A DNA stretch of 64,000 nt from Ostreococcus lucimarinus. Lineage: Eukaryota. The stretch lies in the NCBI GenBank assembly GCA_000092065.1, contig CP000599.1. The stretch is one strand, 5' to 3'. Positions 9,701 through 42,897 of the stretch are shown one piece after another. The position numbers were made by a program, and so were the translations under genes. The number at the start of each line of letters is the position of its first letter. The first letter of the stretch is position 1. Below the pieces are notes generated by a model. That model saw nothing but the letters and a program-made list of their open reading frames with translations. It was not told the DNA's origin and did no database searches.

Positions 9701-12276
9701 GCGGCGAGGGTCACTTTCCTCAATTCGAACGCGGCGTCCCGCTCCACGATTTCGGCGGCGCGTTCAGCCTCGCGAAGCATGCGCGTCAAGTCGGAAACTT
9801 GCGTCTTCAATTCGGCGTTTTCCGTCATCAACGCCTTGACACGCCCTTCGAGTGCGCCGGCACGCATATCATCGCGCTCAAGCGCCTTGTTGGCCGTGCG
9901 AAGTTCGCTGACTGCGCGCTCGAGTTCGCTGACCTTCGCTTTGAGTTGCTTTACGCGCGCGATGGCTTCGTCCTTGGCGATTTCTTCCGAGCGAACGCGG
10001 TCTTTGAGTTTTGCCACCTCATCGACAGTCATCCCAGATACACCTTCGAGCTCGGAGACGCGCGCATCCGTCTTGCGTTCGACTTGAGTGCGTTGGTACG
10101 TGTACTCCAACTGCACTTTTTCCAGACGCGAAGTCACCTCGCGGCACTCTTCGCTCAATTCATCGTTCCTCGCGTTGGACGCCTTCAGTTCGTCTTCCAA
10201 ATTACGCACGCGTTCGCCCAAGTTGCGCGCTTTTTCGTCGCTCTGCGAAGCAGACGTCATGGATTTTGCGACAAGCACTTGCAACTCTTCTTCCATTTCC
10301 TTTACCTTGAGCTGCTCCGCTTCGAGTTTTTGCGTGAGAGAGAACTCAACTGCCATTTGCTTCCCGAGCTCTGCTTTGGCGGTTTCCAAGCTCTGAAGCG
10401 CTTCGTCGACATCTGTTTCACTGGTGGTGCGCTTGCTCATGAAAACGTTGATATTTTCGATCCAAGCGGCGACGGGCATGCCGACTGAGGTTTCAATAGA
10501 CGGAATTTCCGGCGATGACTCCGGCTGCGTTGGCTCTTCCTTCGTCTCCGTCGCTTGAGCTTCGATCTTGGCTTGTTCGCGCTCGCGTTCTTCCTGCGCC
10601 GCCTTGGCCTTAGCCTCGCGTTCCTCCTGCGCCGCCTTGGCCTTAGCCGCGCGTTCCTCCTGCGCCGCCTTGGCCTTAGCCGCGCGTTCCTCCTGCGCCG
10701 CCTTGGCCTTAGCCGCGCGTTCCTCCTGCGCCGCCTTGGCCTTAGCCGCGCGTTCCTCCTGCGCCGCCTTAGCCTTGGCCTTGGCCTCGCGTTGTTGGCG
10801 CTCGCGTTCTTCCTGCGCCGCCTTGGCTTTGGCTTCGCGCTCTCTTTGAGACGCTTGGGCTTTCAAATCGCGCTCGCGCTGTTCGCGTTCACGTTTCTCT
10901 ACGAGTGCCTTTGCTTTGGCTTCGCGCTCGCGCTGCTGACGCTCGCGCGTCTCCTCTTGCTCGCGTTTGCGCTTCAAGCGGTCGAGCTCCGCCGCCTTGG
11001 CTTTCGCCTCGCGCGCTTGCACGGCGCGAATCTCCTCCTGCTCGCGCAAGAAGACGGCATTCTTCATCGCTGCCTTTTCAGTGTCTCGGGCTTTATAATA
11101 GACGTCGATCGCCGCGAGCACAGACGCCGGAATCTTGTTGCGAGGCGTCTGTTCTTCCATATCGGCGATAGTCTTGCAAACGGCGGCGTCAAGCTCGTCG
11201 CTCGAAGCCGCGAGCTTAGCCGCGAGCTCTGGCGCGCCCGAGATTTGCGAAAAAGCCTCCGCGAAGTCCAAACGAAGCGCTTGTCGACCTTCGGTCGTGG
11301 TGAGCAAACGCCTGTACACGGTGCCGTAATACGCCGTGACGACGAAACCGACGAGCTGTTCGAGCGCCGCGAGCGGCGGGTTGGATTCTAAACTCGACAA
11401 AACGGCGTCAATGGAAACCGTGGACAACACCGCCGTGACCGCGATCCCGGTCACGGCGCTGTACGCCACGCCCTGACGCAACGCGCGCTCGCGCGTGCGC
11501 TCGTACTCTTCCCAACTCGAATTCGCCTCGGCGTCGAATTCGCCATCCTTGTACTTTTTCAAATCCTCCAACAAGCTCGTCGTCTCTTTCGCCGTCTTCG
11601 CCGTCAGCGCCTTCACCGTCGCCTCCGCCTCGCTCTCATCTTTCGCCGCGAGCAAACTCGCGATCTTAGAGCTTATAAACGCCGCCTTCTTCGCCGCGTC
11701 CGCGAGCTCCGCCGGAATCGCTTCGTCTTCGTTCGCCCGCGCCTCCCGCGTCGATCGATCCAGCACTCGCCTTCCCGCGTCTCGCGCCCTCGACACCACC
11801 GCCGACGACGTCTCCGACTCTTCCTCTTCGTTTCCCGTCTCTCCCGTCGCTTTCACGATCGCGATTCGCTTCGATTCGCGTCGTCGTCGCGCCTTCGCCG
11901 CGCCTCGCGCGCCTCGTCGCGCCCCGCCGTCGATCCTTCCCGCCACCGTCGCCGCGATCGCCATCGCGACGCCCCCGGACGACGCGAGCGGTCGCGTCGC
12001 GTCGACGCGCGCGCGCGCGGTCGCGCTCGGTGCGCGCGCGCGACGAGCGCCGCGCGCGGGATCGGCAGACGGCGCTGCGATTTCAAACTTCGCGCGTCGA
12101 TTTCGTCGCGAAACCGCGTCCGCGGCGCGCGAGATTCGCGCGAGGCGCTCGCGTTCGCGCGCGCTCGCGTTCGGCGCGCGCTCGCGTCGCGCGTCGCGCG
12201 CGCGTGTGCGGTCGGCGAGGCGCGCGTTCGACGACGGTCGACCGCGCGGGTGGGTAAACAGTGCGGTACATTTCAT
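6727..12276 (-). CDS. Giant coiled-coil protein with N-terminal hydrophobic segments, a SAP domain and a duplicated C-terminal domain
   Basis: 1849-aa ORF with more than 1000 aa of heptad-rich Glu/Ala/Lys/Arg sequence. SAP-like LTALSKMKRDELIAECAARGLDATGLAAELRSRL. Two C-terminal repeats (YRTVGGVRYDNAAL... and YRVIDGAKYDDKAL...). The start may really be Met at 11964, because the CBS gene stop lies only 39 nt upstream of 12276. Confidence 0.75.
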   Translation of the reverse strand: MKCTALFTHPRGRPSSNARLADRTRARDARRERAPNASARERERLARISRAADAVSRRNRRAKFEIAAPSADPARGARRARAPSATARARVDATRPLASSGGVAMAIAATVAGRIDGGARRGARGAAKARRRRESKRIAIVKATGETGNEEEESETSSAVVSRARDAGRRVLDRSTREARANEDEAIPAELADAAKKAAFISSKIASLLAAKDESEAEATVKALTAKTAKETTSLLEDLKKYKDGEFDAEANSSWEEYERTRERALRQGVAYSAVTGIAVTAVLSTVSIDAVLSSLESNPPLAALEQLVGFVVTAYYGTVYRRLLTTTEGRQALRLDFAEAFSQISGAPELAAKLAASSDELDAAVCKTIADMEEQTPRNKIPASVLAAIDVYYKARDTEKAAMKNAVFLREQEEIRAVQAREAKAKAAELDRLKRKREQEETRERQQREREAKAKALVEKREREQRERDLKAQASQREREAKAKAAQEERERQQREAKAKAKAAQEERAAKAKAAQEERAAKAKAAQEERAAKAKAAQEERAAKAKAAQEEREAKAKAAQEEREREQAKIEAQATETKEEPTQPESSPEIPSIETSVGMPVAAWIENINVFMSKRTTSETDVDEALQSLETAKAELGKQMAVEFSLTQKLEAEQLKVKEMEEELQVLVAKSMTSASQSDEKARNLGERVRNLEDELKASNARNDELSEECREVTSRLEKVQLEYTYQRTQVERKTDARVSELEGVSGMTVDEVAKLKDRVRSEEIAKDEAIARVKQLKAKVSELERAVSELRTANKALERDDMRAGALEGRVKALMTENAELKTQVSDLTRMLREAERAAEIVERDAAFELRKVTLAADQRRRELEHQYANEERRIKNLEADAKKAIENSARLEKQFATLLDEDKTARELYDAKREAEVAMEDAATARAALAKVEAKLETRSANEQSYATLKMSRALDAASAETKQAQAQLQEMRDSVAQMERSLNESSRAEKEQMKSEIERLRAEKESALETLKSAEARAESQALELRQALARVQEEKAAAQSRLDGEQNARLSDMAKLQETVARLTEEKSAFERELANAVDSTALDASRAECETLRGQLQAKTDELNKAEKAASESARTYASEISSLKSASSAEKDAINAAAANEALRRQGEIDRLVEERNDVRNALAELEAKAAENAVASEKERERIAEALRVSEAKLATAVDSSEARIAEIRAKYDELVAEKSEVDRAYAESKKSIDDAMSQSEQNVAAARTAVAQVEERFTALEVEIKRLRAEKSRVDARLVEETSKSDGLVSDIERLVEEGSARELSAASAAEAFESLKGQLTDAERRASEANARFEALKAKTASLVEASELEAARDDARRAENAWREKLRIAELEQEELRDEIERTRAEASEATRLRSMSDELERKLAEADDRASELARELRSEQEAAAAALAAIAAERDELTRNLTEARAKVEASSSALNDDVERELRADLARMEARLAAAEDDADVARERAQEEFAVEAQTIAERAASDLAEAESRFATQLEELEAKLSSATLAIKEAEAKTEALAKRAAKAETAAERASGAQVPAPSTPTPVIVSTETSSPGVDAASEERPAIVFEPSSLTALSKMKRDELIAECAARGLDATGLAAELRSRLRDARLTEKNALTQQQRAQKRKAPQGFYRTVGGVRYDNAALCLADTFMAERGEIDRAGAEKIYESVFDGAGITKIELETLALVLAGGGGRYAYVLSDAAATYLQPRIDARREEIESGLTKSASKQYRVIDGAKYDDKALSIADASVKKSGAVSLAAAERVFDAVLDGAGATAREIATLVYIAESMPPASDDVTAYLTLKINELRAR
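10585..10840 (-). repeat. 33-bp in-frame tandem repeat (about 7 copies, 4 of them identical) encoding AKAKAAQEERA units
   Basis: The unit gcgttcctcctgcgccgccttggccttagccgc is repeated back-to-back at 10618, 10651, 10684 and 10717, with degenerate copies on both sides. Confidence 0.9.
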
Positions 12277-17833: not shown

Positions 17834-18920
17834 TCACGTGAGATCGTCCTCCTCGGCTTCCACGGCGGCGACGATGCGCTTCTTAGCCTTTAATAGCATC
17901 GTCGTCTTCCAACCGTCGAGCCTGGACATGGAGTCGAATTCCGCCACCGCGCTCGAAAACGCGTCTTGATCGCCCGCCTCGAACGCCTTGGCGCAATTCA
18001 CCAACAAATCGCGCTCGCGCGACGACGCGAACGCCGGGTCGCTCTCCTCGTATCGCTCGCACGCGTTCAGCACCCCGACGGCGTCGTTCCAGCACAATCG
18101 ACAGATCCCCGCCTGTAAAAAGTACCCCTTCACCGAGAACCGCAGTAAATTGTTATTCAACGACGCGCGTCCGACGTCCTCAAAAATCTCCGTCGCCTCT
18201 TCGAATCGATCGAGCTTGCTCGCCAGCAGCGTCGCCGCCTTCAGTTTACAATTATTCCCCGTCGTCCGTCCCGAGTCGCCCTCGCCGTCGTACAGATCCG
18301 CCGCGCTCGAGAACGCCTCCACCGCGCGTTCATCCCCCTCCGCCGTCCCCAGGCTCTCGTACGTCTCGCCGATCTCCTTCAAATGTTTCGCCGCCTGCGC
18401 CAGTCGTCCCAATCGCGCGTACGCGTTCGACGCTTCCCTGTAGTGTCCGATCGCCTCCTCGTTCGCCCCGCACTTCTTCAGCATCTGCGCGCAGTCCACG
18501 TGCGCCGACGCCGCGTCGTGCGTCTCCTTCGTCGTCGCTCTGCACGTCGCCAGCGCCTCGTACGCGTCCGCCGCTCTTCGCCAGCTCTTCGCCAGCTTAA
18601 ACGACGTCGCCGCGCGCTCGTACAGCTCCGCCGCCTCCTCGTGCCTGTTCGCGCCCGTGATCGCGCTGAAGAATCCAACGCTCTGTCGTCGTCGTTCAGT
18701 CGGTCGCGCCGTCGTCAGTCGTCCTTCGTTCCTTCGTTCGTTCGTTCGTTCGTTCGCATTCATTCATTCATTCATTCGCGTCGATCGTTCGCGTCGAGCG
18801 CGCGCGTTCGCGCCGCTCGAGCGCGTCCGATCGCGCGCTCGCGCGCGCGCGTCGCACCCTGAGTTTCTTGGCCGCCGCGGCGCAGAGCGCGTCGCCGCGC
18901 GCGAGATCGTCGTCGCCCAT
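17834..18920 (-). CDS. ASNAP: Alpha-soluble NSF attachment protein (alpha-SNAP), two exons (18858..18920 and 17834..18682)
   Basis: Exon 1 is MGDDDLARGDALCAAAAKKLR. Exon 2 is SVGFFSAITGANRHEEAAELYERAATSFKLAKSW... This matches the canonical SNAP N-terminus (MGD...KKL..F......AA.L...AAN.FKLAKSW). TPR-like repeats run throughout. Confidence 0.88.
18683..18857 (-). other. Spliceosomal intron (175 nt) in alpha-SNAP
   Basis: AGG|GTGCGA donor, two CGACTGA(C/A) branch candidates, GACGACAG acceptor. It contains (GAAT)n(GAAC)n microsatellites. Confidence 0.8.
18722..18776. repeat. Compound tetranucleotide microsatellite (CGTT)n(CATT)n inside the SNAP intron
   Basis: ccttcgttccttcgttcgttcgttcgttcgttcgcattcattcattcattcattc. 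Confidence 0.9.
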
Positions 18921-18985: not shown

Positions 18986-19771
18986 ATGCGCGCCGCGACG
19001 CGCGTCGCGACGTCGCGCCCCGTCCCTCGCGCGTCGCGCTCGAGCGCGTCGCGCGTCGCGGCGACGCGAAGATTCGACGCGCGACCGAGCGACGACGTCG
19101 ATTCGGCGCAAAGATTCGACGCGCGTATGGCGCTCGTGGCGCTCGCGACGGTCGCGGCGACGCGATGCGAACTTCTAAAGCCGCCGGCGTGCGAGGCGGC
19201 GTTCATGGAGGCGGTCGAGGGGTCGGCGTCGGTGGTGACGCCGGCGGCGCCGTCGAGGCTGAAGCCGCGCGCGCGCGACGTCGTGCTGGAATCGAAATCC
19301 GAACACGCGGGCGAGGATCTGCGGCGAGAGGACCTGCGAGGGGCGATCTACGCCGAGGCGGATTTGCGACGGAGCGATCTGCGGGAGAGCGACGCGCGAG
19401 GGGCGGTGTTCAGTCGAGCGGTGATGCCGGGGGTGGACGCGCGAGACGCCGATTTTTCAGACGCGATGTTCGATTACGCGCTGCTGCGAGGGAGCGATTT
19501 CACGAATAGCGTGTTCGTGGGGGCGAATTTCGTGCGGGCGGATCTGGGGGAGGTGGTGGCGACGAACGCGGACTTCACGGAGGCGGTGATCGATCGGTAT
19601 CAGACGCTGTCGCTGTGCGAACGGGCGTCGGGGACGAATCCGTACACGGGGGCGAACACGCGGGATTCGTTGCTGTGCGACTTGGTGAAGCCGTACGCGG
19701 GCTCGGGCGAGGGAGGGAAGGTGGTGGCGACGAAGACGTCGGGGACGTGGGGTGGGGGGGGGCGCGAGTGA
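18986..19771 (+). CDS. Thylakoid-lumen-type pentapeptide-repeat protein (TL15/TL17-like)
   Basis: Tandem A(D/N)LxX pentapeptides: EDLRREDLRGAIYAEADLRRSDLRESDARGAVFSRAVMPGVDARDADFSDAMFDYALLRGSDFTNSVFVGANFVRADL. The N-terminus looks bipartite, with an RR-containing presequence and then the hydrophobic MALVALATVAA. Confidence 0.8.
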   Translation: MRAATRVATSRPVPRASRSSASRVAATRRFDARPSDDVDSAQRFDARMALVALATVAATRCELLKPPACEAAFMEAVEGSASVVTPAAPSRLKPRARDVVLESKSEHAGEDLRREDLRGAIYAEADLRRSDLRESDARGAVFSRAVMPGVDARDADFSDAMFDYALLRGSDFTNSVFVGANFVRADLGEVVATNADFTEAVIDRYQTLSLCERASGTNPYTGANTRDSLLCDLVKPYAGSGEGGKVVATKTSGTWGGGGRE

Positions 19772-19851: not shown

Positions 19852-22800
19852 CTACAGCGTCACGTGCGCGACGCGCTGCGGGAAGCGATACACCGTTCCG
19901 TCGCCGCTCAGACAGCTCGCCAAGTACGCCCCCAAAGACGCCGAACTCGACATCATGGTGTCTAAACTCAACGCGTCGTCCATGGCGACGCCGTGCAAGT
20001 AAGGCTCCAAGTTTTCGACGGCGACGGCGGTGACGTGAGACTTCACCTCGACGTTGTACGACGCGCCGAGCGCGCTCAGCGCGTCGCAAATTTGTTCGGC
20101 GCACGTCAAGAAGACGTCGTCGGCGGGCGCGGTGTCGTGGGACCGTCGTTCACCGCGGCGTTTCTTCTCGGCGTGGTACATGGCGAAAAATTTGGCGTCG
20201 TGACTTTGTTCCGTCGCCGCGGCGATGAACCCCAAACCGCCGGGTCGAAGCGACTTGCGGAAATTTCGCAGCGCGGAGTGTAATTTCCCGCGAGGCGTCG
20301 TCGCGAATCCGTGCGCGGTGTACACGATGTCGTAGCCGATCGAAGGGTCAGCGGCACCGCCGCCGTCGCGAGTGTCGTCCTGCGTCAGCGCGTCCGCGTA
20401 ATCCTGCGGAGGCACGAACGTCGTCGTCGATCCGCGATGGAGCGTGCCGACTCTAAACGGCGGCACGAGCGACGTCGCCGCCGTGTGCAACGCCACCGCG
20501 GAGACATCCAGTAGATCGACGCTGACGTATAAGCGTTCCATCGCGGGATCGATCAACGGTGACATCATCGCCTCGCGCGTGGCGTCCGCGATATGGCGGC
20601 ACAACGCCGCAGAAAACGTGCCGACGCCGCACGCCATTTCGAGCGCCGTGAGCGCGTCGGATGGGATCGACTGACGCACCGTCGTGTTGGCGTACACTGA
20701 AGACGTCACGGATGCCACGTCGCTCGCGTCGACGTCACTTTCGCCGCGCGCCCAAGCTTTCTCAATATCGCCGTCCTCCCCGTCGTCGACGTGTTCGCGG
20801 ATGCGTTCGCGCTGAAGCGACGCGAACGTCTTCCACCAGTCGTGCGATTCAGTGATGGATTGCACGTCTGAAAACGTCGCCATGCAATACCCGGGCGTAC
20901 GACGAAGTCGCTCGTGTTTTGCGGTGTCGTGCTCTTGCTCCAACATTTCGGCGATGCGTTCGGGCGCGTTCGACCCGTCGTCCACGGACGTCGCCGTGGT
21001 GGCGGTGACGTCGCCGCCGTAGTCGCTGTAAAATTCGTCGTCGACGATGGATTGAATGTCGGATTCATCGTCGTTTTCGAACCCGTCGTCTTCGGAATCC
21101 GATAATAACGGACGTCGCTCGATTATCGTCTCTTCTTCGTCGTACGCTTTTGCACGAAGGGGTGTCGGTGTCGCGCGCGCGCCGCTCGAAACGTTCGGAG
21201 ACGTAGACGTCTTCGGAGCCGCGCGATCCACCGCACGAGATATCCGAGCGCACTCCCCAGCGCTCACGACGCCCACGTTTTCCATCCAACCGGCGCGCAA
21301 CAACGCGCGATACGTCAATGTTTTCACAAAGTCTTGCAGCGCGAACGAGCACAAGGCGAAGACAAACACAAACGCGATGCGCGCCCACGAAATCGACGCC
21401 AACGCCATGAAGGGCCAATTCGCGCTCAACAAGCAACTCATCGTCAATGACGTGGCGAACGCAGCCAAAACTAGCCCCCCTGGGCGTCGCTCGAGGAACG
21501 ACTTGTGCGCACGAGCGCTGAAAACCGTCATCGCGTCCGTGAGCGTGAGCTTGAGAAACACACAGGTTTGCACCTCGCCGTACGGTAATCGAGCGCTCAG
21601 CGCCACGCGCAGTAACGCCAGAGTCGTGAAACACGCCGTGAAGCCGCTCGCCGCGCTGACGAAGACGTGCGGAAGTAAATTCCAACGCTCTGGTAAACGG
21701 CTCGGTGAGGTGTGGTCGTACGCGGTGCCGATGACGACAACGTCATTGAGCGCGGCGTTGACGCACAACGCGATGACTGGGAGCGTAAACGTATCCGGCG
21801 CGGAGACGTCGAAAGATTTTGGACTCACCACGAGGGCGCCAAATACAAAAAATCCCAAGACGTGCGCCGTGCACGTCGCACGAAATACAATGTATTCACG
21901 CACGCGCGCGAACATCACTCGGGCAGAGAGAACCGCGTGCGCCAAGGCTGCGAGCGACGGCGCGGCTAATATGATGTCGGACGCGCATCGCGCGGCGTCG
22001 CTAGCGTTATTCATCGACACTCCCACATGTGCGAGCTGAAGCGCCGCGCTATCGCTCGCGCCATCACTCACTAAACCGACGATGTCACCCTTAGCGCGAT
22101 GGGCCTTCACCAGCGCGTGCTTGTCCTCGGGTAGCATTTCGGCGTAAGCCTTCATGCGATCGAGCTTGTCGCAGTGCGCCGGGCTCAGCACGCTCGCGCG
22201 AAGAGGCACGTACGGTACATCGCTCGGAGTGTGGATGATTCCGTCAGAATTCTCGCTCAGATCGAAACCAATCTTATCGCACGCCACGCGCGCGACCCGA
22301 GCGACATCACTAGTGACGATTTTTACGTCGACGCCGAGCGATTGCATCGCGTGCAGCATCTCGTGCGCGTCCTTGCGACGCACGTCGTCGTACATAATCA
22401 AACCCAGACCGACGTACGAATCGTCGTGGGTTTTCGAACAAGCCACCAAGAGTGCGCGAGAAATCACTCCCGCCGCCGCGCGAGATTGCAACTGCTCGAG
22501 CGCGTCGTCGACGATGGCTTGCGCGCTCTCGCGGTTGACACACTTTTCTAGCGCGACGTCGATCGGGCCCTTCATCACGCGAAACGTCGATCCGTCGTTC
22601 GCTCGACGGATGATGCTTTCACTGAATTTTCTCTTTGCCGAGACATCGAAAGGTCGATGCTCTACGAGTTCGAACTTCCCTTCCAAGTGTCGCGCGACGT
22701 CAAAGGCGTCTAAAATCATCGCGTCCACGGCGTTTGTCGGCGGCTCCTTCCATCGCGTTCCCATCGCCGCCGCCGTCATGACGTCGTTTTCGCTGACACC

Positions 22801-24228
22801 CTCGAGTAAAGGCACCGTGGGAACGATCGAGCTCAGTTTTGCGGCATCTTTAGTCAACGTTCCGGTTTTATCGACGCACAAGACGTTCATGAGAGCCAAA
22901 TCTTCGATGACGCGCGCGCGCGCGACGATGCACGATTTTTTCGCCAACGCGCGAACGCCCAAAGAGGTCGTCGTGTGCACGATCGTTCGAATCGCCAAAG
23001 GTGTGCTGATGATCAAAAGAATGACCGCAAACGATAGCGAGCGGAAGAAGTCCTTCCCCCCCACGATGAGGTACAAGAATACGCTCAGCGAGGACGCGCA
23101 TCCGACCACCGCGAACGAGCGCGTGACGATGGACACGTTCGCGTCGAACGCGGACATTTCCTTGCGAGATGAATCTCTGGCTCGCATCACGCGCGCCGCG
23201 CGCCCAGCGAATGTGTGTTTTCCGGTGCGCACCACCATCGCTCTCGCGGAGCCGCGCTTGACGACGCCTCGCGTGAACAACGGTTCGCCCTTCGCGACGT
23301 CGACGGTGTGCCTGTCGCCCGTGATCAAAGAATTATCCAAAACCAACGTCTGCGGTCCGCACGACACGCAATCCGCGGGCACCGCACACCCGGGCGTGAG
23401 CGTGACGATGTCTCCCGGCACGAGAAAACGCGCGTCGACGACGCGCGACGTCCCCGATCTCGTCACCGTCGCTCGAGCGTCCACGAGCTCCGCCAACTCC
23501 CGACTCGCCCGCACCGCGTCCTCCCTCTCGACGTGCGACACCCACGCGTTACCGAAAACCAACCCCAACAAAATCATCGCGTTGAACGTCGGATCGTCGT
23601 GCACGCGCGCGTTAAAACTCTGCGCCAATTCCAACGCCGCCCCCGTCGCCAACACCCGCGCCGTCGGATTCCTAATCTCCGCGCGCAGAAACCGCGCGAA
23701 CCGCGCGCGCGCGCGTCCCGCGTCCCCCCCCCCCGCGCTCGCCTTCCGCGCCCGCGCGCCGTCGTCCCCATCCTCGCCCGTCGCCCAATCGTTCGCGCCG
23801 TACTTTTCCAACCGCCGCGCCGCCTCGCGTTCTCGCAAGCCGCCGTCGACGTCCGCGTCCAAATCCTCCTCGTCCACCGCCGTCTCCTGCACCCCGTGGT
23901 CTCGCGCGCGCGACATCTCGTCCATCATTTTCCGCGCGTCCATCGCCGCCGCCGTCGTCGCGCTCGAGTCGTTCGCGCGCGCGCGTCGTCCGTCGTCGCC
24001 GTCGTCGCCCGCGGCGCCGTCGTCGCCCGCGGCGCCGAGCGCGCGCACCCATCGTTCAATCTTTTTCGTCACCGGCGCCTCGTCGCGCGCCGTCGCGCGT
24101 CCCAGATCATCGCTCAGCATGCGTTCGTAATCGTCGCCGATCGGTGACGTCGGGTCGTCGTCGCGCGCGTCGCGCGTCGTCGAATTCGTCGCCGCGTCGT
24201 CGCAATCATCGCGTTCGCGTCGTCGCAT
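19852..24228 (-). CDS. Divergent P-type (P3A H+-ATPase-like) ATPase fused to a C-terminal class-I SAM-dependent methyltransferase domain
   Basis: One uninterrupted frame. Pump motifs are LEKYGAN, VPGD, PAD, ITGDRHTV (in place of TGES), CVDKTGTLT, KGPID, KIVTSD and SDGASDSAAL, with 10 TM-like helices. After about 125 aa of acidic linker come the MTase motifs LEMACGVGT (motif I), VDLLDVS, YDIVYTAHGF and LRPGG. The ORF-track start at 24498 runs through an AT island. The first plausible ATG is at 24228. Confidence 0.75.
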   Translation of the reverse strand: MRRRERDDCDDAATNSTTRDARDDDPTSPIGDDYERMLSDDLGRATARDEAPVTKKIERWVRALGAAGDDGAAGDDGDDGRRARANDSSATTAAAMDARKMMDEMSRARDHGVQETAVDEEDLDADVDGGLREREAARRLEKYGANDWATGEDGDDGARARKASAGGGDAGRARARFARFLRAEIRNPTARVLATGAALELAQSFNARVHDDPTFNAMILLGLVFGNAWVSHVEREDAVRASRELAELVDARATVTRSGTSRVVDARFLVPGDIVTLTPGCAVPADCVSCGPQTLVLDNSLITGDRHTVDVAKGEPLFTRGVVKRGSARAMVVRTGKHTFAGRAARVMRARDSSRKEMSAFDANVSIVTRSFAVVGCASSLSVFLYLIVGGKDFFRSLSFAVILLIISTPLAIRTIVHTTTSLGVRALAKKSCIVARARVIEDLALMNVLCVDKTGTLTKDAAKLSSIVPTVPLLEGVSENDVMTAAAMGTRWKEPPTNAVDAMILDAFDVARHLEGKFELVEHRPFDVSAKRKFSESIIRRANDGSTFRVMKGPIDVALEKCVNRESAQAIVDDALEQLQSRAAAGVISRALLVACSKTHDDSYVGLGLIMYDDVRRKDAHEMLHAMQSLGVDVKIVTSDVARVARVACDKIGFDLSENSDGIIHTPSDVPYVPLRASVLSPAHCDKLDRMKAYAEMLPEDKHALVKAHRAKGDIVGLVSDGASDSAALQLAHVGVSMNNASDAARCASDIILAAPSLAALAHAVLSARVMFARVREYIVFRATCTAHVLGFFVFGALVVSPKSFDVSAPDTFTLPVIALCVNAALNDVVVIGTAYDHTSPSRLPERWNLLPHVFVSAASGFTACFTTLALLRVALSARLPYGEVQTCVFLKLTLTDAMTVFSARAHKSFLERRPGGLVLAAFATSLTMSCLLSANWPFMALASISWARIAFVFVFALCSFALQDFVKTLTYRALLRAGWMENVGVVSAGECARISRAVDRAAPKTSTSPNVSSGARATPTPLRAKAYDEEETIIERRPLLSDSEDDGFENDDESDIQSIVDDEFYSDYGGDVTATTATSVDDGSNAPERIAEMLEQEHDTAKHERLRRTPGYCMATFSDVQSITESHDWWKTFASLQRERIREHVDDGEDGDIEKAWARGESDVDASDVASVTSSVYANTTVRQSIPSDALTALEMACGVGTFSAALCRHIADATREAMMSPLIDPAMERLYVSVDLLDVSAVALHTAATSLVPPFRVGTLHRGSTTTFVPPQDYADALTQDDTRDGGGAADPSIGYDIVYTAHGFATTPRGKLHSALRNFRKSLRPGGLGFIAAATEQSHDAKFFAMYHAEKKRRGERRSHDTAPADDVFLTCAEQICDALSALGASYNVEVKSHVTAVAVENLEPYLHGVAMDDALSLDTMMSSSASLGAYLASCLSGDGTVYRFPQRVAHVTL

Positions 24229-24396
24229 TTCGTCGTCTCGCGTCGTCGCGACGCGGTTCGAGACGCCCGCGCGCGAGTATTTTTCGCGTGCGATCGCGTT
24301 CGACGCGATTCGCGATCGCGATTCGCGATCGCGCAAAGCGCGGCGTCGCGAGCCGTCGCGCTCTGACGCGAATCGCGTCGCGTCGGGCCGTCGTGA

Positions 24397-24462
24397 TGTA
24401 TCATAAACCCTATATTTACGTATTGTACACTTTTTAGTACTATGTAGATGTAGATTTTGGGT
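24397..24462. promoter_or_regulatory. AT island between divergent ATPase-MTase (-) and uL3 (+) genes
   Basis: tatcataaaccctatatttacgtattgtacactttttagtactatgtagatgtagattttgggtaaaac. It has two GTAC cores, a TACGTAT and an AAACCCTA telo-box. Confidence 0.4.
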
Positions 24463-24527
24463 AAAACGAGCGCCCCGATCGCGCGCGCGCGTCCGCACAC
24501 GACGCCGAGACGCGCGCGCGCGCCGTC

Positions 24528-25610
24528 ATGCTTCGTCGCGCCTGCGCGCGCGCGGCGACGCGCGTCGCCGCGCTCGTCGCGCCGAGCCGCGCGATCGGCG
24601 CGCCGCTCGCGTCGCCGCGCGCGCGATTTCCGTCGCCGCCGCAACTCGTCGCGTCGGCGAATCATCGCCTCGCGAGCGCGCGCGCGGCGGCGCCTCGACC
24701 GTCGAGCGCGGGAATCGCGCGCGATCGACGCTCGGCGCGATCGAACGCGGTCGAGCGCGCGACGTACGCGACGTCGGCGCGCGCGGTGGACGCGGCGCAC
24801 CGAAGGGCGAACGCGACGCGCGCGGCGACGCGAGAGGCGCGCCGAAGGACCGGCGCGGTGGCGATCAAGACCGGGATGACGTGCGATTGGGACGCGCGAG
24901 GGACGAGGATCCCGCTCACGGTGCTGTGGATCGACGATTGCGAGGTGGTGGCGGCGAAGACGTCGAGCGGGGCGGACGGGTACGACGCGGTGCAGGTGGG
25001 ATACGGAAGCCGAAAGCCGAAGCAGGTGACCAAGGCGGAGCTGGGGTACTTTGTGCGAAGGAAAACGAACATTAAGAGAGCGCTGTGCGAGTTTCGGACG
25101 AGCGCGGACGGGGTGCTGGCGCCGGGGACGGCGATCACGGCGGCGCACTTCGCGGCGGGGCAGTACGTGGACGTGCAGGGCGTGACCAAGGGGAAAGGGT
25201 TTCAGGGACCGATGAAGCGGTGGGGGTTCTCGGGACAGCCCGCGAGTCACGGGAACACGAAGAAGCATCGCGCGCACGGGAGCATCGGGCAGTGCCAGGA
25301 CCCGGGGCGAGTTTTTAAGGGGAAGAAGATGGCGGGTCGGATGGGCGGCAGGACGCGCACGGTGCAGAGCGCGTACGTGTACAAGGTGGACACGGAGAAG
25401 AATTTGGTGTACGTCAAGGGACAAGTCCCGGGGAACGCCGGAATGGCGGTGAAGATCAGAGACAGCCTGCGGAAACCGCCGGCGCTGGACGGGAGCGAGG
25501 TGCCGTTTCCGACGGCGGTGGCTGGCGAGCACCCGACGGGGGTCTTCGTCGCGCCGCCGCAGGGCGCGGATCCGTTCGGTAACCCCGAACCGGTGAAGCA
25601 GCGCGCGTGA
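24528..25610 (+). CDS. MRPL3: Organellar (mitochondrial-type) ribosomal protein uL3
   Basis: KGKGFQGPMKRWGFSGQPASHGNTKKHRAHGSIG...GRVFKGKKMAGRMGGRTRTVQSAYVYKVDTEKNLVYVKGQVPGN, preceded by an Arg/Ala-rich presequence. Confidence 0.9.
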   Translation: MLRRACARAATRVAALVAPSRAIGAPLASPRARFPSPPQLVASANHRLASARAAAPRPSSAGIARDRRSARSNAVERATYATSARAVDAAHRRANATRAATREARRRTGAVAIKTGMTCDWDARGTRIPLTVLWIDDCEVVAAKTSSGADGYDAVQVGYGSRKPKQVTKAELGYFVRRKTNIKRALCEFRTSADGVLAPGTAITAAHFAAGQYVDVQGVTKGKGFQGPMKRWGFSGQPASHGNTKKHRAHGSIGQCQDPGRVFKGKKMAGRMGGRTRTVQSAYVYKVDTEKNLVYVKGQVPGNAGMAVKIRDSLRKPPALDGSEVPFPTAVAGEHPTGVFVAPPQGADPFGNPEPVKQRA

Positions 25611-35890: not shown

Positions 35891-38800
35891 CTAGTACGGG
35901 ACGCATCCCGGCGACGCGCAGTAGCCCCAGCTGAGGACGTCCATGGTTTGGTGCACCTCGGCGGCTTGGTAGCCAACCTTTGCGAAGCCCTTGCTGCCCG
36001 TGGACGCGGTGAGACCGATGTAGGCGTTGCCGTCCGTGTCCAAAATCTTCGCCATGTCTCTGTCTTCCACGGCGACTTGGAAGACGTAGCGGTCCATGTC
36101 GTCGATGAAGACTTGAATCTCCCCGGGGAACTCCTTGATGATGTTGTAATTGATGTTCGAATCTTGCTTGGGATCGAACGCCGGTTGTTGAATGTCGAAG
36201 AAGCTTTGTCTGTCGGGAGACGTCGCCGTGCCCGTGTTTTCGAGTTGCGCTTCGGTGTCAGAGGTGATGCTGATGACGCGCGTCGCTTCGCCGTCGTCGG
36301 CGAAACCCGCCGTGCCGCTGACGACGGCTTGTCGCGAGCTGTCGAGAGTTTTGTCCCGGTTAATCTTCACCTTGACGTTCGCCTTGACGCGGCCGCCATA
36401 ACCGAATTCAAAACCGGTTCGCAGCTCGGTTTTGAACTTGGTGCTCGAGCCAACCAATTTACGTCTGTCGGTCGAGCCGTCGGTGTGCGTCGTCGTGATT
36501 TGCCCAGTGCCCGCCTTCTCCGTGGTGAACCCGCGAGTGTATCTAATCTTCACCGTGTGCGCTAAACCATCCGCCATCGTCGGCACGCTCGGCGTGCTTC
36601 CGAAGTGCATGCCTTCGCTGTCATCGCTGTGATCGGCTTTCAAGTCGGTCACCGAGCTCCCCCACGGTTGGTTGTCGTAAAACGGCGCCGTCGTCATGAA
36701 GACGCCCAGGTGATTGTCGTTATAGGACACGTACTCGGTGGCGTTAATCCACCAGTGTTGCTTTCCTTGCTTCGGATCACGACGCTCGACGTTGTAGAAG
36801 GTGTCGAATTCCACCGCGAGCGACTTCTTCAAGCCGTTGGTGCACATGTCGGGCGTGCCGTCGTAATCCGCCGAGTCCACTTGCGTGGATTCTCCGTATC
36901 CCAAACCGTCGCCCGGGCACCCGACGAAACCGCCACCGTCGGTCAAGGACCCGCTCGCACCGCACAACTTGTACCTTGTGCCGGAAATCGGTTGCGGATT
37001 GGACGCGTCGTCGAACGTGCACGCCCAGCCTGTGTTGCCGTGCACGCTGTCCACCGTTTCTTGACGATCGTCGTTAGAGATGACGAACGCAAAGCCGTCG
37101 GCGCCGTCGCAAATTTGATCCGCGCCGCCGCATTGCGTGGGGTTGGTGATTTGGAACTCAAAGTTGGTCTCGAAACCATCCCAGATGTGTACTTTGCGGT
37201 GCCACCACACGGCGCCGACGCGCTGCGAGGTGCGGAAATCGGCGCTCGACTTCCACGGAGATCCGAGGGCGGAGTTACCGTTCGTTCTCGCGAACGCTTC
37301 GGTCAGTCGCACGACGTACTTGGGCGACGCATCGTTATTTTTCACCACCGACGCATCGCCCGCAAAACGCAGGTTGTGCTGAATGCAGTTGTTGATCCAC
37401 GTCTTGTTCCCACCCCACGCCGAGCCCTCACGCGTTCCGGTAGGGTTGGAGTCGTCGACGAAGGAATCGTCGCACGCGAAGTTTGGAAAGTCAAACTCCA
37501 TGTAAAATCTCGCGCTGTATTCGCTCGCACCGACGGTTTGCGGGTAGCGGTTATCGCCCATGATACCGATCGTGAGTTGATCGCAATTCGGCGACGCGTC
37601 GTTGTGGATGTAGTGTCCGAGCGCTCGCGCGTACGCAAACGCTGACTTCGAGCTGTCGGTGGTGTACCCGCCGAGAACGGCTTGCTTCAATTCCCCGCTG
37701 CTCGCTTCACCCTCGTCCGGGCCGGCGCAGAGCACCAAGGATTCGCCGACTGAAAGCGCCCAGGGCACGGATTCGCGCACCGACGTGTGACCGTAAGACC
37801 CAGTCGTGGGTCGCGTCGTACCGACGGTGGTGTACAAATCGAGGTTGTCGTTCACGGTGTGCACGGCGATGCGGAAGTCGTAGTCGCCCATGTCCGGCTT
37901 CAAATAGTAGTACGCGTACTGTTGAGGATCGACGACGGAGGAGACACGGAAACCGCAGCACCCCGGATCGATTTCGCAATACTTGTGCGACCAAGTTTGG
38001 TAAAAGGTTTGCAGAGGGTGGCGCAAGTACGCCCCGGCGTTGTCGTCCGCGACGATGGTAGTAGTGTCGTCGTGGACCCCCGAGCCCCCGCCCCCGCCAT
38101 CGCCGAATCGCCCGCCCGCACACTTGAGCACCTTGACGTCAGTGCCGGAGTAAGCGTTGGCAAAAGTGTCGATCGAAACCACCGTCGCAGTGGTATCATC
38201 AGTGATGGCGGTCACGCGAGCGTCGACCGGCCCGTTGGCGTTGGCGTCGCGCACGATGTCTCCGAGTTGAAGCTCGGTCAAAAACTTGCTGCCGACCCCA
38301 GCGAGTGTGCCGGCGGAGTGGGTGAGGGTAAAGCCACCCGTTTGCGTGAGCGCCTTTGCGGGCCGATGGGAGTCACCCACGTTCGCCGGAACGCACTTGC
38401 CGTGGTTGTAGCAAATCGGCGGGTTCGCGTTGTCGTCCGTCATGTACCGCTCGCCTTCGGTGGAGATGTAATACCGACAGTTTTCAATGTCGGCGACGTG
38501 GAGTCGCCACTCGGAACCGACGTCGACGGTCTTATCATCCCACTTGACGTAGACGCCGATACCGGAACTCACGCCTGAATCTTGCAGTTCAACCCACGCG
38601 GTGTGGTAGGCGCCCGCGGCGCCGCCAGAGTTGGCGAAGTTTTTCCAGTACGTGGTGTACGAGTAGGTGTGGGGGGAAGCCGTGTTCGCGCCCGACGTGT
38701 GCACGAGTTGCACCGTCACGCCTCGAGGCCAGAGCGGAAGAAGTCGCGTCAAACCGCGGACGTGCAGCGTCGTGATCGTTGCCGTGCCGCTCCCATTCTC

Positions 38801-42743: not shown

Positions 42744-42751
42744 TCGAGGGC

Positions 42752-42897
42752 CTTTATATACGTATATTTCGTAGAAATATACTTTATATTCGGAAACATG
42801 TCGTATGGGTATTGTGTCTGTGGTTATAATTGGTAGTATCCGAATATTCGGACACACGGCGTATGCGTATTGTGTATATACACATAATTGGTAAAAG
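42752..42897. promoter_or_regulatory. AT-rich island in the SOD/CCS divergent intergenic region (putative bidirectional core promoter)
   Basis: About 145 bp of TA/TG/CA-rich sequence in an otherwise CG-saturated context. It contains TATACGTATA (42757-42766), four CGTAT motifs and the palindrome TCCGAATATTCGGA. Confidence 0.4.
42839..42852. promoter_or_regulatory. 14-nt perfect palindrome TCCGAATATTCGGA, with an extra direct half-site ATATTCGGA at 42786-42794
   Basis: Read directly. It is self-complementary across all 14 positions, and the half-site recurs 50 nt away. Confidence 0.35.

What the first reader, a model, noticed from the sequence alone, without database searches (positions are those of the whole stretch)
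22852..23322. The pump half keeps the phospho-aspartate but has drifted at other catalytic motifs
The phosphorylation site DKTGTLT (22852-22872) is intact. Other motifs have changed. The A-domain dephosphorylation motif TGES reads TGDR (23311-23322). KGAPE reads KGPID. DPPR reads DDVR. TGD reads TSD. GDGVNDAPALK reads SDGASDSAALQ. The M4 IPIAMP reads STPLAI. This pattern fits either a very divergent transporter subfamily or a pump that has become a phosphorylation-driven regulator of the fused methyltransferase.
Basis: partly seen in the sequence, partly recalled or inferred. Interest (0 to 1): 0.6.

Follow-up and report, generated by a model that had tools for sequence, protein, structure and literature searches.

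The report
Decaying proton pump fused to methyltransferase
A marine green picoalga (Ostreococcus group) carries one gene in which a plant/fungal-type proton pump is fused to a methyl-transferring enzyme, and across related algae the pump's catalytic residues are progressively lost while the protein stays under selection, so the pump half has probably become a membrane anchor or sensor rather than a working pump.

Summary
One intron-less ORF (19852-24228, minus strand, 1458 aa) has an intact DKTGTLT but reads TGDR, KGPID, TSD and SDGASDSAALQ where P-type ATPases have TGES, KGAPE, TGD and GDGVNDAPALK. Two motifs were registered one residue off: DPPR aligns to DVRR and IPIAMP to TPLAIR.

The pump half derives from P3A H+-ATPases but fails the P3A model cut-off. 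It is not a pseudogene: dN/dS is 0.15, synteny is conserved, and intact orthologues occur in many assemblies.

The family shares TGER/TGDR, PLAIR, KGP, DVRR and SDxxSD. Each lineage also carries its own change at positions invariant in 67 other pumps:
- DKTGT becomes DTTGT, ETTGT, or STSCC in a Bathycoccus-like lineage.
- The catalytic Lys becomes Thr.
- The Mg-binding Asp becomes Asn, Gly or Ala.

A deeper-branching fusion (P0223/P0377) still has fully canonical motifs, so the fusion predates the decay.

Most likely the pump module no longer runs a normal ATP-driven cycle. It probably serves as a folded membrane module, possibly still binding nucleotide, for a conserved class I SAM methyltransferase of unknown substrate. 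Residual autophosphorylation in this lineage is not excluded. The closest analogue is the P4-ATPase-guanylate cyclase chimera. I found no paper describing this fusion.

The parts
19852..24228 (-). Complete intron-less CDS, 1458 aa from the first ATG (the ORF extends upstream to a GTG at 24498). It is a P3A-derived pump module fused to a class I methyltransferase.
   Evidence: ORF list. The 99%-identical metagenome protein P0001 has the same 1458-aa extent. Full-length alignment to AHA2/Pma1.
23884..24228 (-). Poorly conserved, low-complexity cytosolic N-terminal extension (aa 1-115).
   Evidence: Family conservation of 0.41-0.50 per 30-aa block. dN/dS of 0.46.
21229..23883 (-). P-type ATPase core (aa 116-1000) with A, P and N domains and 10 predicted transmembrane helices.
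   Evidence: Pfam E1-E2_ATPase at 6e-42. TIGR01647 scores 429.7 bits, below its 615.5 cut-off, while TIGR01494 passes. AlphaFold2 gives pLDDT 86.5 and pTM 0.84. Foldseek top hits are Pma1 and AHA2.
23311..23322 (-). A-domain dephosphorylation loop reading TGDR where other pumps have TGES.
   Evidence: The Ser-to-Arg change is in all 15 family members. The Glu-to-Asp change is only in the window clade and its 92%-identical sister.
22987..23004 (-). M4 motif reading TPLAIR where AHA2 has IPIAMP. The helix-breaking Pro is kept and the second Pro is Arg.
   Evidence: The predicted M4 helix breaks at TPL. The same Arg occurs in the canonical-motif relatives P0223 and P0224.
22852..22872 (-). Phosphorylation motif DKTGTLT, intact in this lineage.
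   Evidence: Codons were checked directly. The motif is not conserved in orthologues (DTTGT, ETTGT, DKTGV/ALT, STSCC).
22558..22572 (-). N-domain nucleotide-site motif reading KGPID where other pumps have KGAPE. The Lys and Gly are kept.
22375..22386 (-). DVRR where other pumps have DPPR. The Asp and Arg are kept and both Pro are replaced.
22306..22314 (-). P-domain motif reading TSD where other pumps have TGD. The Gly-to-Ser change is specific to this lineage.
   Evidence: TSD is found in 13/13 members of the window's 90% cluster, while the 92%-identical P0002 has TGD.
22120..22122 (-). Catalytic Lys (SERCA K684 equivalent, in LPEDK), kept here.
   Evidence: It is Thr in 4 of 15 family members, fixed in all sampled assemblies of those lineages.
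22036..22068 (-). Hinge motif reading SDGASDSAALQ where other pumps have GDGVNDAPALK. The two Asp (D703 and D707 equivalents) are kept, and the first Gly and the Asn are Ser.
21742..21744 (-). M6 Asp (AHA2 D684 equivalent, the proton acceptor/donor position, in ALNDV), conserved in the whole family.
21862..21864 (-). M5 His at the AHA2 Arg655 position, conserved in the family.
   Evidence: Pedersen 2012 notes that Arg655 is also absent from other chlorophyte P3A pumps.
20977..21228 (-). Acidic, poorly conserved linker between M10 and the methyltransferase. It carries short conserved RRPLL and DEFYSDYG motifs.
   Evidence: Conservation profile. Consensus sequences.
19855..20976 (-). C-terminal class I SAM-dependent methyltransferase domain with a conserved N-terminal helical cap.
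   Evidence: Methyltransf_25/12/23 match in 9/9 family members, best E 7e-9. Foldseek hits are all small-molecule class I methyltransferases, though the model is poor. dN/dS of 0.22-0.30.
20614..20634 (-). SAM-binding motif I reading ACGVGTF (GCGVG in most orthologues).

Best explanation
The gene encodes a chimera of a P3A-type (plasma-membrane H+-ATPase-like) pump and a class I SAM-dependent methyltransferase. It is found in Mamiellophyceae picoalgae, and this window comes from an Ostreococcus near O. lucimarinus.

Shown by the data:
- The fusion arose once, from a protist-type P3A pump. A deeper-branching fusion lineage still has every canonical catalytic motif.
- On the stem of the Ostreococcus/Micromonas/Bathycoccus-type family the catalytic centre was remodelled. 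TGES became TGER, KGAPE became KGP.., DPPR became DVRR, and GDGxND became SDxxSD.
- Since then each lineage has accumulated its own changes at residues that are invariant in other pumps, up to complete loss of the phospho-aspartate.
- Meanwhile the fold, the membrane domain, the nucleotide-site residues Phe/Lys/Arg (in the 15 aligned members) and the methyltransferase stay under purifying selection.

Inferred:
- The pump module no longer needs, and in this lineage probably no longer performs, a normal ATP-driven H+ transport cycle.
- It acts as a folded 10-helix membrane module that places the methyltransferase on the cytosolic face of a membrane. It takes the position occupied by the autoinhibitory R-domain of plant and fungal pumps.
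- It possibly still couples nucleotide binding and/or protonation of the conserved M6 Asp to methyltransferase activity.
- In this window's lineage the bare HAD core survives (Asp, Lys and Thr of DKTGT, Thr/Asp of TSD, the catalytic Lys, and both hinge Asp). A slow or dead-end autophosphorylation is therefore conceivable, with dephosphorylation impaired by TGDR.
- The methyl acceptor is unknown. The domain resembles small-molecule methyltransferases.
For: Ancestry:
- The best PDB sequence hits are AHA2 (2.5e-74) and Pma1 (1e-70), against MgtA at 2e-42 and P2 pumps near 1e-33.
- TIGR01647 (P3A) scores 430 bits against 180 for the next model.
- NJ trees place the family inside P3A with 100/100 bootstrap support.

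Not a pseudogene:
- The ORF is intact. dN/dS against a 92%-identical orthologue is 0.145 for the pump core and 0.04 for M5-M10.
- The gene order L3 / gene / pentapeptide-repeat protein / SNAP is conserved in four orthologous loci and partly in a fifth, short contig.
- More than 100 independent assemblies carry it.

Complete fold:
- AlphaFold2 gives pLDDT 86.5 with 10 transmembrane helices and the M4 break at the conserved Pro.
- Foldseek matches Pma1 and AHA2 at E around 1e-43 to 1e-47.

Relaxed catalytic centre:
- 10 of 28 columns invariant in 67 other pumps vary in the family, even though its members are 58-99% identical to the window protein.
- The lineage-specific changes are D351E, K352T, K684T, D703N/G/A, T355V/A and G626S/A. 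They are fixed in every sampled assembly of each lineage: ETTGT 14/14 and DTTGT 17/17.
- The Bathycoccus-like syntenic orthologue reads STSCC, FGDD, TSA and GDRLED.
- The lineages lacking the catalytic Lys residues (one of which has also lost the phospho-Asp) still show dN/dS of 0.32 for the pump and 0.22 for the methyltransferase. The membrane half is relaxed there (0.42 against 0.04).

Order of events:
- P0223/P0377 is a fusion with canonical TGES, DKTGTLT, TGD, PEHK and GDGANDAPAL.
- Its methyltransferase is homologous to the window's (BLASTP 1e-18). It groups with the family at 100/100.

Methyltransferase:
- Pfam methyltransferase models match all family members scanned.
- Motif I, the acidic end of strand 2 and motif IV are conserved.

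Analogy: P4-ATPase-guanylate cyclase chimeras also lose the DKTGT Asp and the DGET Glu in some lineages (PMC13466520).
Against: - In this particular lineage every residue that directly performs phosphoryl transfer is still present: Asp, Lys and Thr of DKTGT, Thr and Asp of TSD, the catalytic Lys, and both hinge Asp.
- 'SDGASD' still fits the general HAD motif IV, and Asp can in principle replace Glu in TGES.
- The P/N domains and M5-M10 are more strongly constrained here (dN/dS 0.12 and 0.04) than in the lineages that lost catalytic residues. This is what one would expect if the pump were still working in this lineage.
- The M6 Asp and M2 Asn of the proton pathway are conserved.
- The dN/dS values are simple Nei-Gojobori estimates on single pairs with small counts (3 nonsynonymous changes in M5-M10).
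- No biochemical evidence exists either way.
- The methyltransferase model is of low confidence and its substrate is unknown, so any coupling between the two halves is pure inference.
Confidence: 0.5

Rival explanations
1. It is still a working but divergent ion (H+) pump in this lineage. The methyltransferase is an added regulatory or metabolic domain, and the orthologues with lost catalytic residues are independent later inactivations.
For: The HAD catalytic core is complete in the window protein. The M6 Asp, M2 Asn and M4 Pro are conserved, and the model shows the M4 helix break. Purifying selection is very strong on M5-M10 (0.04) and on the P/N domains (0.12) here, against 0.42 and 0.29 in the lineages that lost catalytic residues. 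The deeper-branching fusion P0223/P0377 has fully canonical motifs, so a pump-plus-methyltransferase chimera can be an active pump. Public annotations call it an H+-transporting ATPase.
Against: The protein deviates at four positions that are invariant in 67 other P2/P3 pumps: the TGES Glu, the TGD Gly, the first GDG Gly and the GDGxND Asn. A family-wide Arg follows the catalytic Glu/Asp, and both DPPR prolines are lost. Every family lineage carries a different change at an invariant catalytic site, a pattern more typical of relaxed selection since the common ancestor than of repeated independent loss. The protein fails the curated P3A model cut-off (429.7 < 615.5) and the Pfam Hydrolase cut-off (24.3 < 26.4).
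Confidence: 0.2
2. The pump half autophosphorylates on the DKTGT Asp but no longer transports, and the long-lived phospho-state (A-domain movement) switches the fused methyltransferase on or off.
For: DKTGTLT, the catalytic Lys, both hinge Asp and the N-domain ATP-site residues are kept. The dephosphorylation loop is altered (TGDR), which would be expected to slow hydrolysis of the phosphoenzyme. The role of the TGES/DGET Glu is described in PMC4937031. The methyltransferase sits where P3A pumps carry their regulatory C-terminal domain.
Against: Orthologues read ETTGT, DTTGT plus Lys-to-Thr, or STSCC, and cannot use this mechanism. They nevertheless keep the whole architecture under selection, so the mechanism cannot be the conserved function. 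Changes at the phosphate- and Mg-binding positions (the Gly of TGD, the Asn of GDGxND) may also impair phosphorylation itself.
Confidence: 0.25
3. The region is a decaying pseudogene or an assembly or annotation chimera.
For: Several hallmark motifs are degenerate. Pedersen et al. 2012 flagged what is probably the O. tauri orthologue as 'a possible chimera'. One O. tauri annotation splits it into two genes.
Against: The ORF is a single uninterrupted 1458 codons. The same architecture and gene neighbourhood occur in many independent assemblies from several genera. dN/dS is 0.15-0.30 in both halves. Conservation is high along the whole pump and methyltransferase. An MMETSP transcript covers the methyltransferase part.
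Confidence: 0.02

Closest known systems
P3A plasma-membrane H+-ATPases (Arabidopsis AHA2, yeast Pma1, protist-type algal pumps; TIGR01647)
   Same: It is the closest family by sequence, by profile score, by phylogeny and by predicted fold. It shares the 10 transmembrane helices and the A/P/N domains, the DKTGTLT motif, the M6 Asp and M2 Asn of the proton pathway, and a cytosolic C-terminal extension after M10.
   Different: It fails the curated model cut-off. It reads TGDR, KGPID, DVRR, TSD and SDGASD in place of TGES, KGAPE, DPPR, TGD and GDGVND. The M5 Arg655 position is His. The C-terminal autoinhibitory R-domain is replaced by a linker and methyltransferase domain totalling about 460 aa. 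Orthologues lose the phospho-Asp and catalytic Lys.
P4-ATPase-guanylate cyclase chimeras (P4GC) of alveolates and stramenopiles (PMC13466520, PMC6592433)
   Same: A P-type ATPase module is fused N-terminally to a cytosolic enzyme in one polypeptide. The pump module is retained and needed. Yet the DKTGT Asp and the A-domain Glu are lost in some lineages and kept in others, and what the pump module does is unresolved.
   Different: The pump subfamily differs (P4 lipid flippase against P3A proton pump). The partner enzyme differs (guanylate cyclase against SAM methyltransferase). The taxa differ, and the fusions are evolutionarily unrelated.
OtAHA1 of Ostreococcus tauri (Ot20g00330, Q00RY3) in Pedersen et al. 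2012 (PMC3355532)
   Same: It is probably the O. tauri orthologue. [quoted passage not shown] The O. tauri family member XP_022840610.1 lies on a 165-kb contig, a size I recall from memory as about that of chromosome 20.
   Different: The paper treats it as an H+ pump and reports neither the methyltransferase domain nor the degenerate catalytic motifs.
Non-catalytic P-type ATPase relatives noted in plants (e.g. Arabidopsis At5g53010, TGES to TASD; footnote 12 of Pedersen 2012)
   Same: These are pump homologues judged unlikely to function as ATPases because several core motifs are lost.
   Different: Those are isolated, partly truncated P2B genes in a single species. They are not a conserved, selected family with a fused enzyme.

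Membership tests
P-type ATPase superfamily (HAD-IC) | DKTGT[LI]T motif with the phosphorylated Asp | tested here: met
   DKTGTLT at 22852-22872, aligned to the AHA2/Pma1 motif. The motif is not conserved in all orthologues.
P-type ATPase superfamily (HAD-IC) | A-domain TGES (or DGET) motif with the catalytic Glu | tested here: not met
   The motif reads TGDR. Glu is invariant in 67/67 comparison pumps, and Ser/Ala/Pro/Thr is replaced by Arg.
P-type ATPase superfamily (HAD-IC) | P-domain TGD and GDGxNDxP hinge motifs | tested here: not met
   The motifs read TSD and SDGASDSA. The Thr, the Asp and both hinge Asp are kept. The Gly of TGD, the first Gly and the Asn of GDGxND (each invariant in 67/67) and the Pro of NDxP are changed.
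P-type ATPase superfamily (HAD-IC) | Score above the curated cut-offs of the generic models | tested here: met
   TIGR01494 scores 153.3 against a cut-off of 62.3. Pfam E1-E2_ATPase scores 143.6 against 28.1. Pfam Hydrolase scores 24.3 against 26.4 and fails.
P-type ATPase superfamily (HAD-IC) | A/P/N domains plus a 10-helix membrane domain with M4 unwound at a Pro | tested here: met
   The AlphaFold2 model has pLDDT 86.5 and pTM 0.84, with a helix break at TPL. Foldseek matches Pma1, AHA2, MgtA and SPCA1. This is a prediction, not an experiment.
P-type ATPase superfamily (HAD-IC) | ATP-dependent aspartyl-phosphate intermediate and vanadate-sensitive ATPase activity | not testable with these tools
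   This needs biochemistry.
P3A plasma-membrane H+-ATPase (TIGR01647 equivalog) | Score at or above the curated equivalog cut-off | tested here: not met
   The score is 429.7 bits against a cut-off of 615.5, although this is by far the best-scoring subfamily model.
P3A plasma-membrane H+-ATPase (TIGR01647 equivalog) | Phylogenetic position within P3A | tested here: met
   NJ bootstrap support is 100/100 for family plus P3A, with a canonical protist-type P3A as sister.
P3A plasma-membrane H+-ATPase (TIGR01647 equivalog) | Proton-pathway residues: M6 Asp (AHA2 D684), M2 Asn (N106) and M5 Arg (R655) | tested here: inconclusive
   The Asp and Asn are conserved in all 15 family members. The Arg655 position is His. 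Arg655 is also missing from other chlorophyte P3A pumps (PMC3355532).
P3A plasma-membrane H+-ATPase (TIGR01647 equivalog) | C-terminal autoinhibitory regulatory domain | tested here: not met
   An acidic linker and a methyltransferase domain follow M10.
Class I SAM-dependent methyltransferase | Match to methyltransferase profile models | tested here: inconclusive
   The window domain scores 21.9 and 20.1 bits, below the cut-offs of 30 and 27. All 9 family members match Methyltransf_25/12/23, best E 7e-9. P0223 has an unmarked Methyltransf_25 hit.
Class I SAM-dependent methyltransferase | Motif I (GxGxG), an acidic residue at the end of strand 2, and motif IV | tested here: met
   ACGVG here and GCGVG in most orthologues. 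The DLLD and YD(I/V)VY motifs are invariant.
Class I SAM-dependent methyltransferase | Seven-stranded Rossmann-like fold | tested here: inconclusive
   The AlphaFold2 model has pLDDT of only 52.8. The listed Foldseek hits are all class I small-molecule methyltransferases (histamine N-methyltransferase, JHAMT, trans-aconitate methyltransferase; E from 3e-7), but TM-scores are only 0.3-0.47.
Class I SAM-dependent methyltransferase | SAM binding, methyl transfer and a defined substrate | not testable with these tools
   This needs biochemistry. The closest stand-alone relatives are uncharacterised bacterial enzymes.
P4-ATPase-guanylate cyclase chimeras (P4GC) | A P4 flippase module fused to a guanylate cyclase | tested here: not met
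   The pump module is P3A and the partner is a methyltransferase. This is a functional analogy only.

The most novel reading that the evidence does not exclude
This would be a natural evolutionary series in which a primary proton pump is converted, step by step, into a non-catalytic membrane module that anchors, gates or senses for a fused methyltransferase. The series runs from a canonical-motif fusion, through a remodelled catalytic centre as in this window, to complete loss of the phosphorylation site. The result would be a membrane-state-dependent (pH, nucleotide or voltage) methylation system in some of the ocean's most abundant picoeukaryotes, and a second, independent case (besides P4-ATPase-guanylate cyclases) of a P-type pump scaffold co-opted to control an enzyme.
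Probability: 0.35. Interest if true: 0.75.

Novelty: new variant of a known kind. Interest (0 to 1): 0.62.

Why it matters
P-type ATPases are defined by an almost invariant catalytic machinery, so conserved family members that abandon it are rare. The best-known case, the P4-ATPase-guanylate cyclase chimera of parasites, is still mechanistically unsolved.

This clade offers an independent example with useful properties. It includes a member with fully canonical motifs, several with partly remodelled sites, and members without the phospho-aspartate. They all sit in small, genetically tractable algae; I know of homologous recombination in O. tauri from memory, not from a tool result. The question of what a pump fold does when it stops pumping therefore becomes directly testable.

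There is also a practical consequence. These genes are annotated as 'H+-transporting ATPase' or 'cation-transporting P-type ATPase' in genomes and metagenomes. One was probably counted as one of only two H+ pumps of O. tauri. Transport inventories of marine picoalgae may therefore overstate their proton-pump complement.

Finally, the fused methyltransferase is highly conserved and has an unknown substrate. It could mark an uncharacterised methylation pathway at a membrane.

Tried and rejected
- **Mis-registration.** A regex scan found no TGES, GDGxND, KGA, DPP or PEG elsewhere in the ORF. Alignment to AHA2/Pma1 fixes the register. Only two motifs were one residue off.
- **Pseudogene or assembly chimera.** Rejected on dN/dS, synteny and many intact orthologues.
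- **M4 Pro-to-Arg as a sign of decay.** Rejected, because the same Arg is present in the canonical-motif fusion P0223 and in the canonical stand-alone pump P0224. Related pumps have Glu at this position.
- **Methyltransferase identification.** A word-indexed search with the window's domain found only family fragments. A PDB profile search gave nothing significant, with best E 0.17. AlphaFold2 with 9 sequences gave a poor model (pLDDT 52.8), so the Foldseek ranking (histamine N-methyltransferase, JHAMT and others) supports only 'class I small-molecule-type methyltransferase' and not a substrate.
- **Bacterial homologues.** Stand-alone bacterial homologues of the P0223 methyltransferase are unnamed. 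Their neighbourhoods (ABC importer operons, PhyH, a second methyltransferase) did not identify a pathway.
- **Bathycoccus-like 'complete' gene P0379.** It lacks the A-domain and M1-M4, which first suggested an N-terminal truncation. The syntenic long-read contig L009 shows an upstream E1-E2_ATPase piece. The truncation is therefore probably a gene-calling or frameshift artefact, and I do not claim loss of M1-M4.
- **Geometry in the model.** Model coordinates are not exposed to the scripting tool. I could not measure distances between the M4 Arg and M6 Asp, or between TGDR and the phosphorylation site.
- **Pedersen 2012 supplement.** The FASTA supplement is not held, so the equation with OtAHA1 stays an inference.
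- **Literature.** Searches for a pump-methyltransferase fusion found nothing.


Full report
**What is in the window.** A single uninterrupted ORF lies on the minus strand at 19852-24498. The first ATG is at 24228, giving 1458 aa. A 99%-identical metagenome protein has exactly this extent. Pfam finds an E1-E2_ATPase domain (6e-42), a sub-threshold HAD hydrolase match and weak methyltransferase matches at the C-terminus.

A residue-by-residue alignment to Arabidopsis AHA2 and yeast Pma1 puts TGDR opposite TGES, KGPID opposite KGAPE, TSD opposite TGD and SDGASDSAALQ opposite GDGVNDAPALK. Two registrations are one residue off. DPPR aligns to DVRR (Asp and Arg kept). IPIAMP aligns to TPLAIR (first Pro kept, second Pro becomes Arg). 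No canonical copy of any motif is hidden elsewhere in the ORF.

**Organism and context.** Neighbouring ORFs are eukaryotic. They include alpha-SNAP, a mitochondrial-type ribosomal protein L3, a CDP-alcohol phosphatidyltransferase, a Cu/Zn SOD, an MFS transporter, a DEAD-box helicase and a SAP-domain protein. The window is 64% G+C.

The 92%-identical protein P0002 shares a 90% cluster with XP_001422424.1, 'P-ATPase family transporter: proton, partial' of Ostreococcus lucimarinus. Another family cluster contains O. tauri XP_022840610.1, 'Cation-transporting P-type ATPase'. I therefore infer that the window comes from an Ostreococcus close to O. lucimarinus.

The gene order L3 / this gene / pentapeptide-repeat protein / SNAP is kept in orthologous contigs of 48-65% G+C. 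These are therefore true orthologues across Mamiellophyceae.

**Which pump family.** Three lines of evidence agree.
- The best solved-structure sequence matches are AHA2 (2.5e-74), Pma1 (1e-70) and the Neurospora pump. MgtA follows at 2e-42 and P2 pumps near 1e-33.
- NCBIfam's P3A model TIGR01647 scores 430 bits against 180 for the next subfamily, but stays below its 615.5-bit cut-off. The generic P-type model passes.
- NJ trees on about 750 columns with 100 bootstraps show the family as monophyletic (100) on a long stem inside P3A (100).

An AlphaFold2 model of aa 116-1000 is confident (pLDDT 86.5, pTM 0.84). It has 10 membrane helices, and M4 breaks at the conserved Pro. Foldseek returns Pma1 and AHA2 first. 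The pump half is therefore a complete, folded P3A derivative.

**Is it decaying?** No. Against the 92%-identical orthologue, Nei-Gojobori dN/dS is 0.145 for the pump core. By region it is 0.19 for the A-domain with M1-M4, 0.12 for the P/N domains and 0.04 for M5-M10. The linker gives 0.33 and the methyltransferase 0.30. Conservation across 16 family members is 0.7-0.9 along both domains and about 0.4-0.5 only in the N-terminus and linker.

**Do orthologues conserve the substitutions?** Partly, and this is the key result. The following are shared by the whole family:
- Arg after the catalytic residue (TGER, or TGDR here);
- S/A-T/A-PLA(I/V)R in M4;
- KGP(I/V/T)(D/E);
- (D/E)D(V/A)RR;
- Ser or Cys for the first Gly of GDG;
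- Ser or Gly for the Asn of GDGxND in 14 of 15 members;
- His at the AHA2 Arg655 position.

Each lineage also has its own change at residues that are invariant in all 67 comparison pumps:
- Glu to Asp in TGES (the window and its sister);
- Gly to Ser or Ala in TGD (the window; O. tauri);
- DKTGV/ALT;
- the hinge Asp to Asn, Gly or Ala;
- DTTGT together with the catalytic Lys to Thr;
- ETTGT together with Lys to Thr and Asp to Ala.

In total, 10 of 28 superfamily-invariant columns vary within a family whose members are 58-99% identical to the window protein. These states are fixed in every sampled assembly of each lineage, for example ETTGT 14/14, DTTGT 17/17 and TSD 13/13. The ETTGT codon was read directly from the DNA.

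A low-G+C, syntenic, Bathycoccus-like orthologue goes furthest. It reads STSCC for DKTGT, FGDD for TGES, TSA for TGD and GDRLED for GDGVND. It keeps M5-M10 and the methyltransferase.

Between two lineages that lack the catalytic lysines (L002 and L004), dN/dS is still 0.32 for the pump and 0.22 for the methyltransferase. The membrane half is relaxed there (0.42) compared with the window lineage (0.04).

**Order of events.** I searched a profile of the family (A-domain to C-terminus) against 1.84 billion representative proteins. The whole family collapsed into one representative at 2202 bits, and the next hit scored 525 bits.

A local search with the methyltransferase profile found only two further carriers. 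One is the Bathycoccus-like protein. The other is P0223/P0377, from compact, eukaryote-like contigs. P0223/P0377 is a pump-methyltransferase fusion with fully canonical TGES, DKTGTLT, TGD, PEHK and GDGANDAPAL. Its methyltransferase is homologous to the window's (BLASTP 1e-18). It groups with the family at 100/100, with a canonical stand-alone pump (P0224) as sister.

Both P0223 and P0224 already have the M4 Arg. That change therefore predates the fusion and is not a sign of decay. I conclude that the fusion happened once, onto an apparently active pump, and that remodelling and erosion of the catalytic centre followed.

**The methyltransferase half.** All nine family members scanned match Methyltransf_25/12/23, best E 7e-9. 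The window copy itself is below the gathering thresholds. Motif I (ACGVG, or GCGVG in most orthologues), the acidic DLLD at the end of strand 2, and YD(I/V)VY are conserved. So are family-specific blocks TEQSHDA, YNVEV, YLHGVAMDD and FPQRVAH.

The structure model is poor (pLDDT 52.8). The Foldseek hits, all class I small-molecule methyltransferases, support only the fold class. The less diverged P0223 domain has stand-alone bacterial homologues of about 270 aa (35-41% identity, unnamed). In two contigs these sit beside ABC importer operons. The substrate remains unknown.

**Interpretation.** Shown by the data:
- The protein has P3A ancestry and a complete predicted fold.
- Both halves are under purifying selection.
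- Family-wide remodelling is combined with lineage-specific erosion of the catalytic residues.
- The canonical-motif fusion branches deeper.

Inferred:
- The conserved function of the family cannot require aspartyl phosphorylation.
- The pump module most likely serves as a membrane module for the methyltransferase, at the position of the P3A regulatory tail. It possibly still binds nucleotide, because the N-domain Phe/Lys/Arg are kept in all 15 aligned members. It may also respond to protonation of the conserved M6 Asp.

In this window's lineage the minimal HAD core is still present and the pump is more tightly constrained than in the lineages that lost catalytic residues. Residual autophosphorylation or slow pumping therefore cannot be excluded. 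I put the pseudo-pump reading at about 0.5, a lineage-restricted phospho-switch at 0.25, a still-active pump at 0.2 and a pseudogene at 0.02.

**Comparison with the literature.** Pedersen et al. 2012 list two P3A pumps in O. tauri. OtAHA1 (Ot20g00330, 1043 aa) is called 'the most divergent' and 'a possible chimera' whose last 200 residues do not match AHA. This is probably the O. tauri orthologue: the family member lies on a 165-kb contig, which I recall from memory as about the size of chromosome 20. I could not verify the sequence. The paper treats it as an H+ pump.

I found no paper describing a pump-methyltransferase fusion or its degenerate motifs.

The closest functional analogue is the P4-ATPase-guanylate cyclase chimera. 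There the DKTGT Asp and the DGET Glu are likewise lost in some lineages, while the pump module remains necessary (PMC13466520). The role of the TGES/DGET Glu in dephosphorylation is described in PMC4937031.

**Limits.**
- The dN/dS values are pairwise approximations with small counts.
- The trees are distance-based.
- The taxonomy of most metagenome orthologues is inferred from G+C content and synteny.
- Model coordinates could not be inspected.
- Nothing here measures activity.

Noticed in passing
window 20977-21228 (minus strand), linker between M10 and the methyltransferase: Inside an otherwise poorly conserved acidic linker, two short motifs are conserved across the family: 'RRPLL' followed by an acidic tract, and 'DEFYSDYG'. 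In this window the first reads ERRPLL and so resembles an acidic dileucine sorting signal, but the acidic residue at position -4 is not conserved in orthologues. Function unknown.
   Followed up: partly
P0167 (MMETSP transcript, cluster of P0017); O. tauri OUS44909.1 and OUS44908.1: An MMETSP transcript ORF of 367 aa marked 'complete' covers only the methyltransferase domain. One O. tauri strain annotation splits the gene into a 1107-aa pump and a 215-aa methyltransferase. These are either partial assemblies or annotation errors, or a hint that the methyltransferase is also expressed on its own.
   Followed up: no
L010 6001-6813 and L011 6001-6804 (bacterial contigs): Stand-alone bacterial homologues of the fused methyltransferase (35-41% identical to the P0223 domain) sit next to an ABC importer operon (solute-binding protein, 503-aa permease, ATPase with TOBE_2) in both contigs examined. 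In L011 they also sit beside a PhyH-family dioxygenase and a second methyltransferase. So there is a methyltransferase-transporter association in bacteria too, of unknown meaning.
   Followed up: partly
window 18986-19771 (+), 17834-18763 (-), 24528-25610 (+): The micro-synteny mitochondrial-type L3 / pump-methyltransferase / pentapeptide-repeat protein / alpha-SNAP is conserved from 48% to 65% G+C genomes across the Mamiellophyceae-type contigs examined.
   Followed up: partly
L009 2042-7285 (Bathycoccus-like long-read contig) and P0379: The Bathycoccus-like orthologue is broken into several ORFs on a polished long-read contig. It is called as an N-terminally short 'complete' gene in a Tara catalogue. 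It has large insertions, one before the TGES position and one before the catalytic-Lys position. Whether M1-M4 and the A-domain are still part of the mature protein there is unresolved.
   Followed up: partly
P0023, P0224, P0225 (canonical protist-type P3A pumps): The second M4 proline (PxxxP), present in 64 of 67 comparison pumps, is Glu or Arg in this algal/protist P3A subclade, even though all catalytic motifs are canonical. The same pumps have Gln at the AHA2 Arg655 position. The M4 charge might substitute for the missing M5 Arg.
   Followed up: no
window 41922-43901 (-): A 659-aa ORF carries a Cu/Zn superoxide dismutase domain only at its C-terminus (aa 502-635). About 500 upstream residues have no Pfam match.
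   Followed up: no
window 35891-40228 (-) and 6727-12276 (-): Two very long ORFs are almost unannotated. One of 1445 aa has a weak legume-lectin-like segment (aa 947-1067). One of 1849 aa has only a SAP domain near its C-terminus.
   Followed up: no
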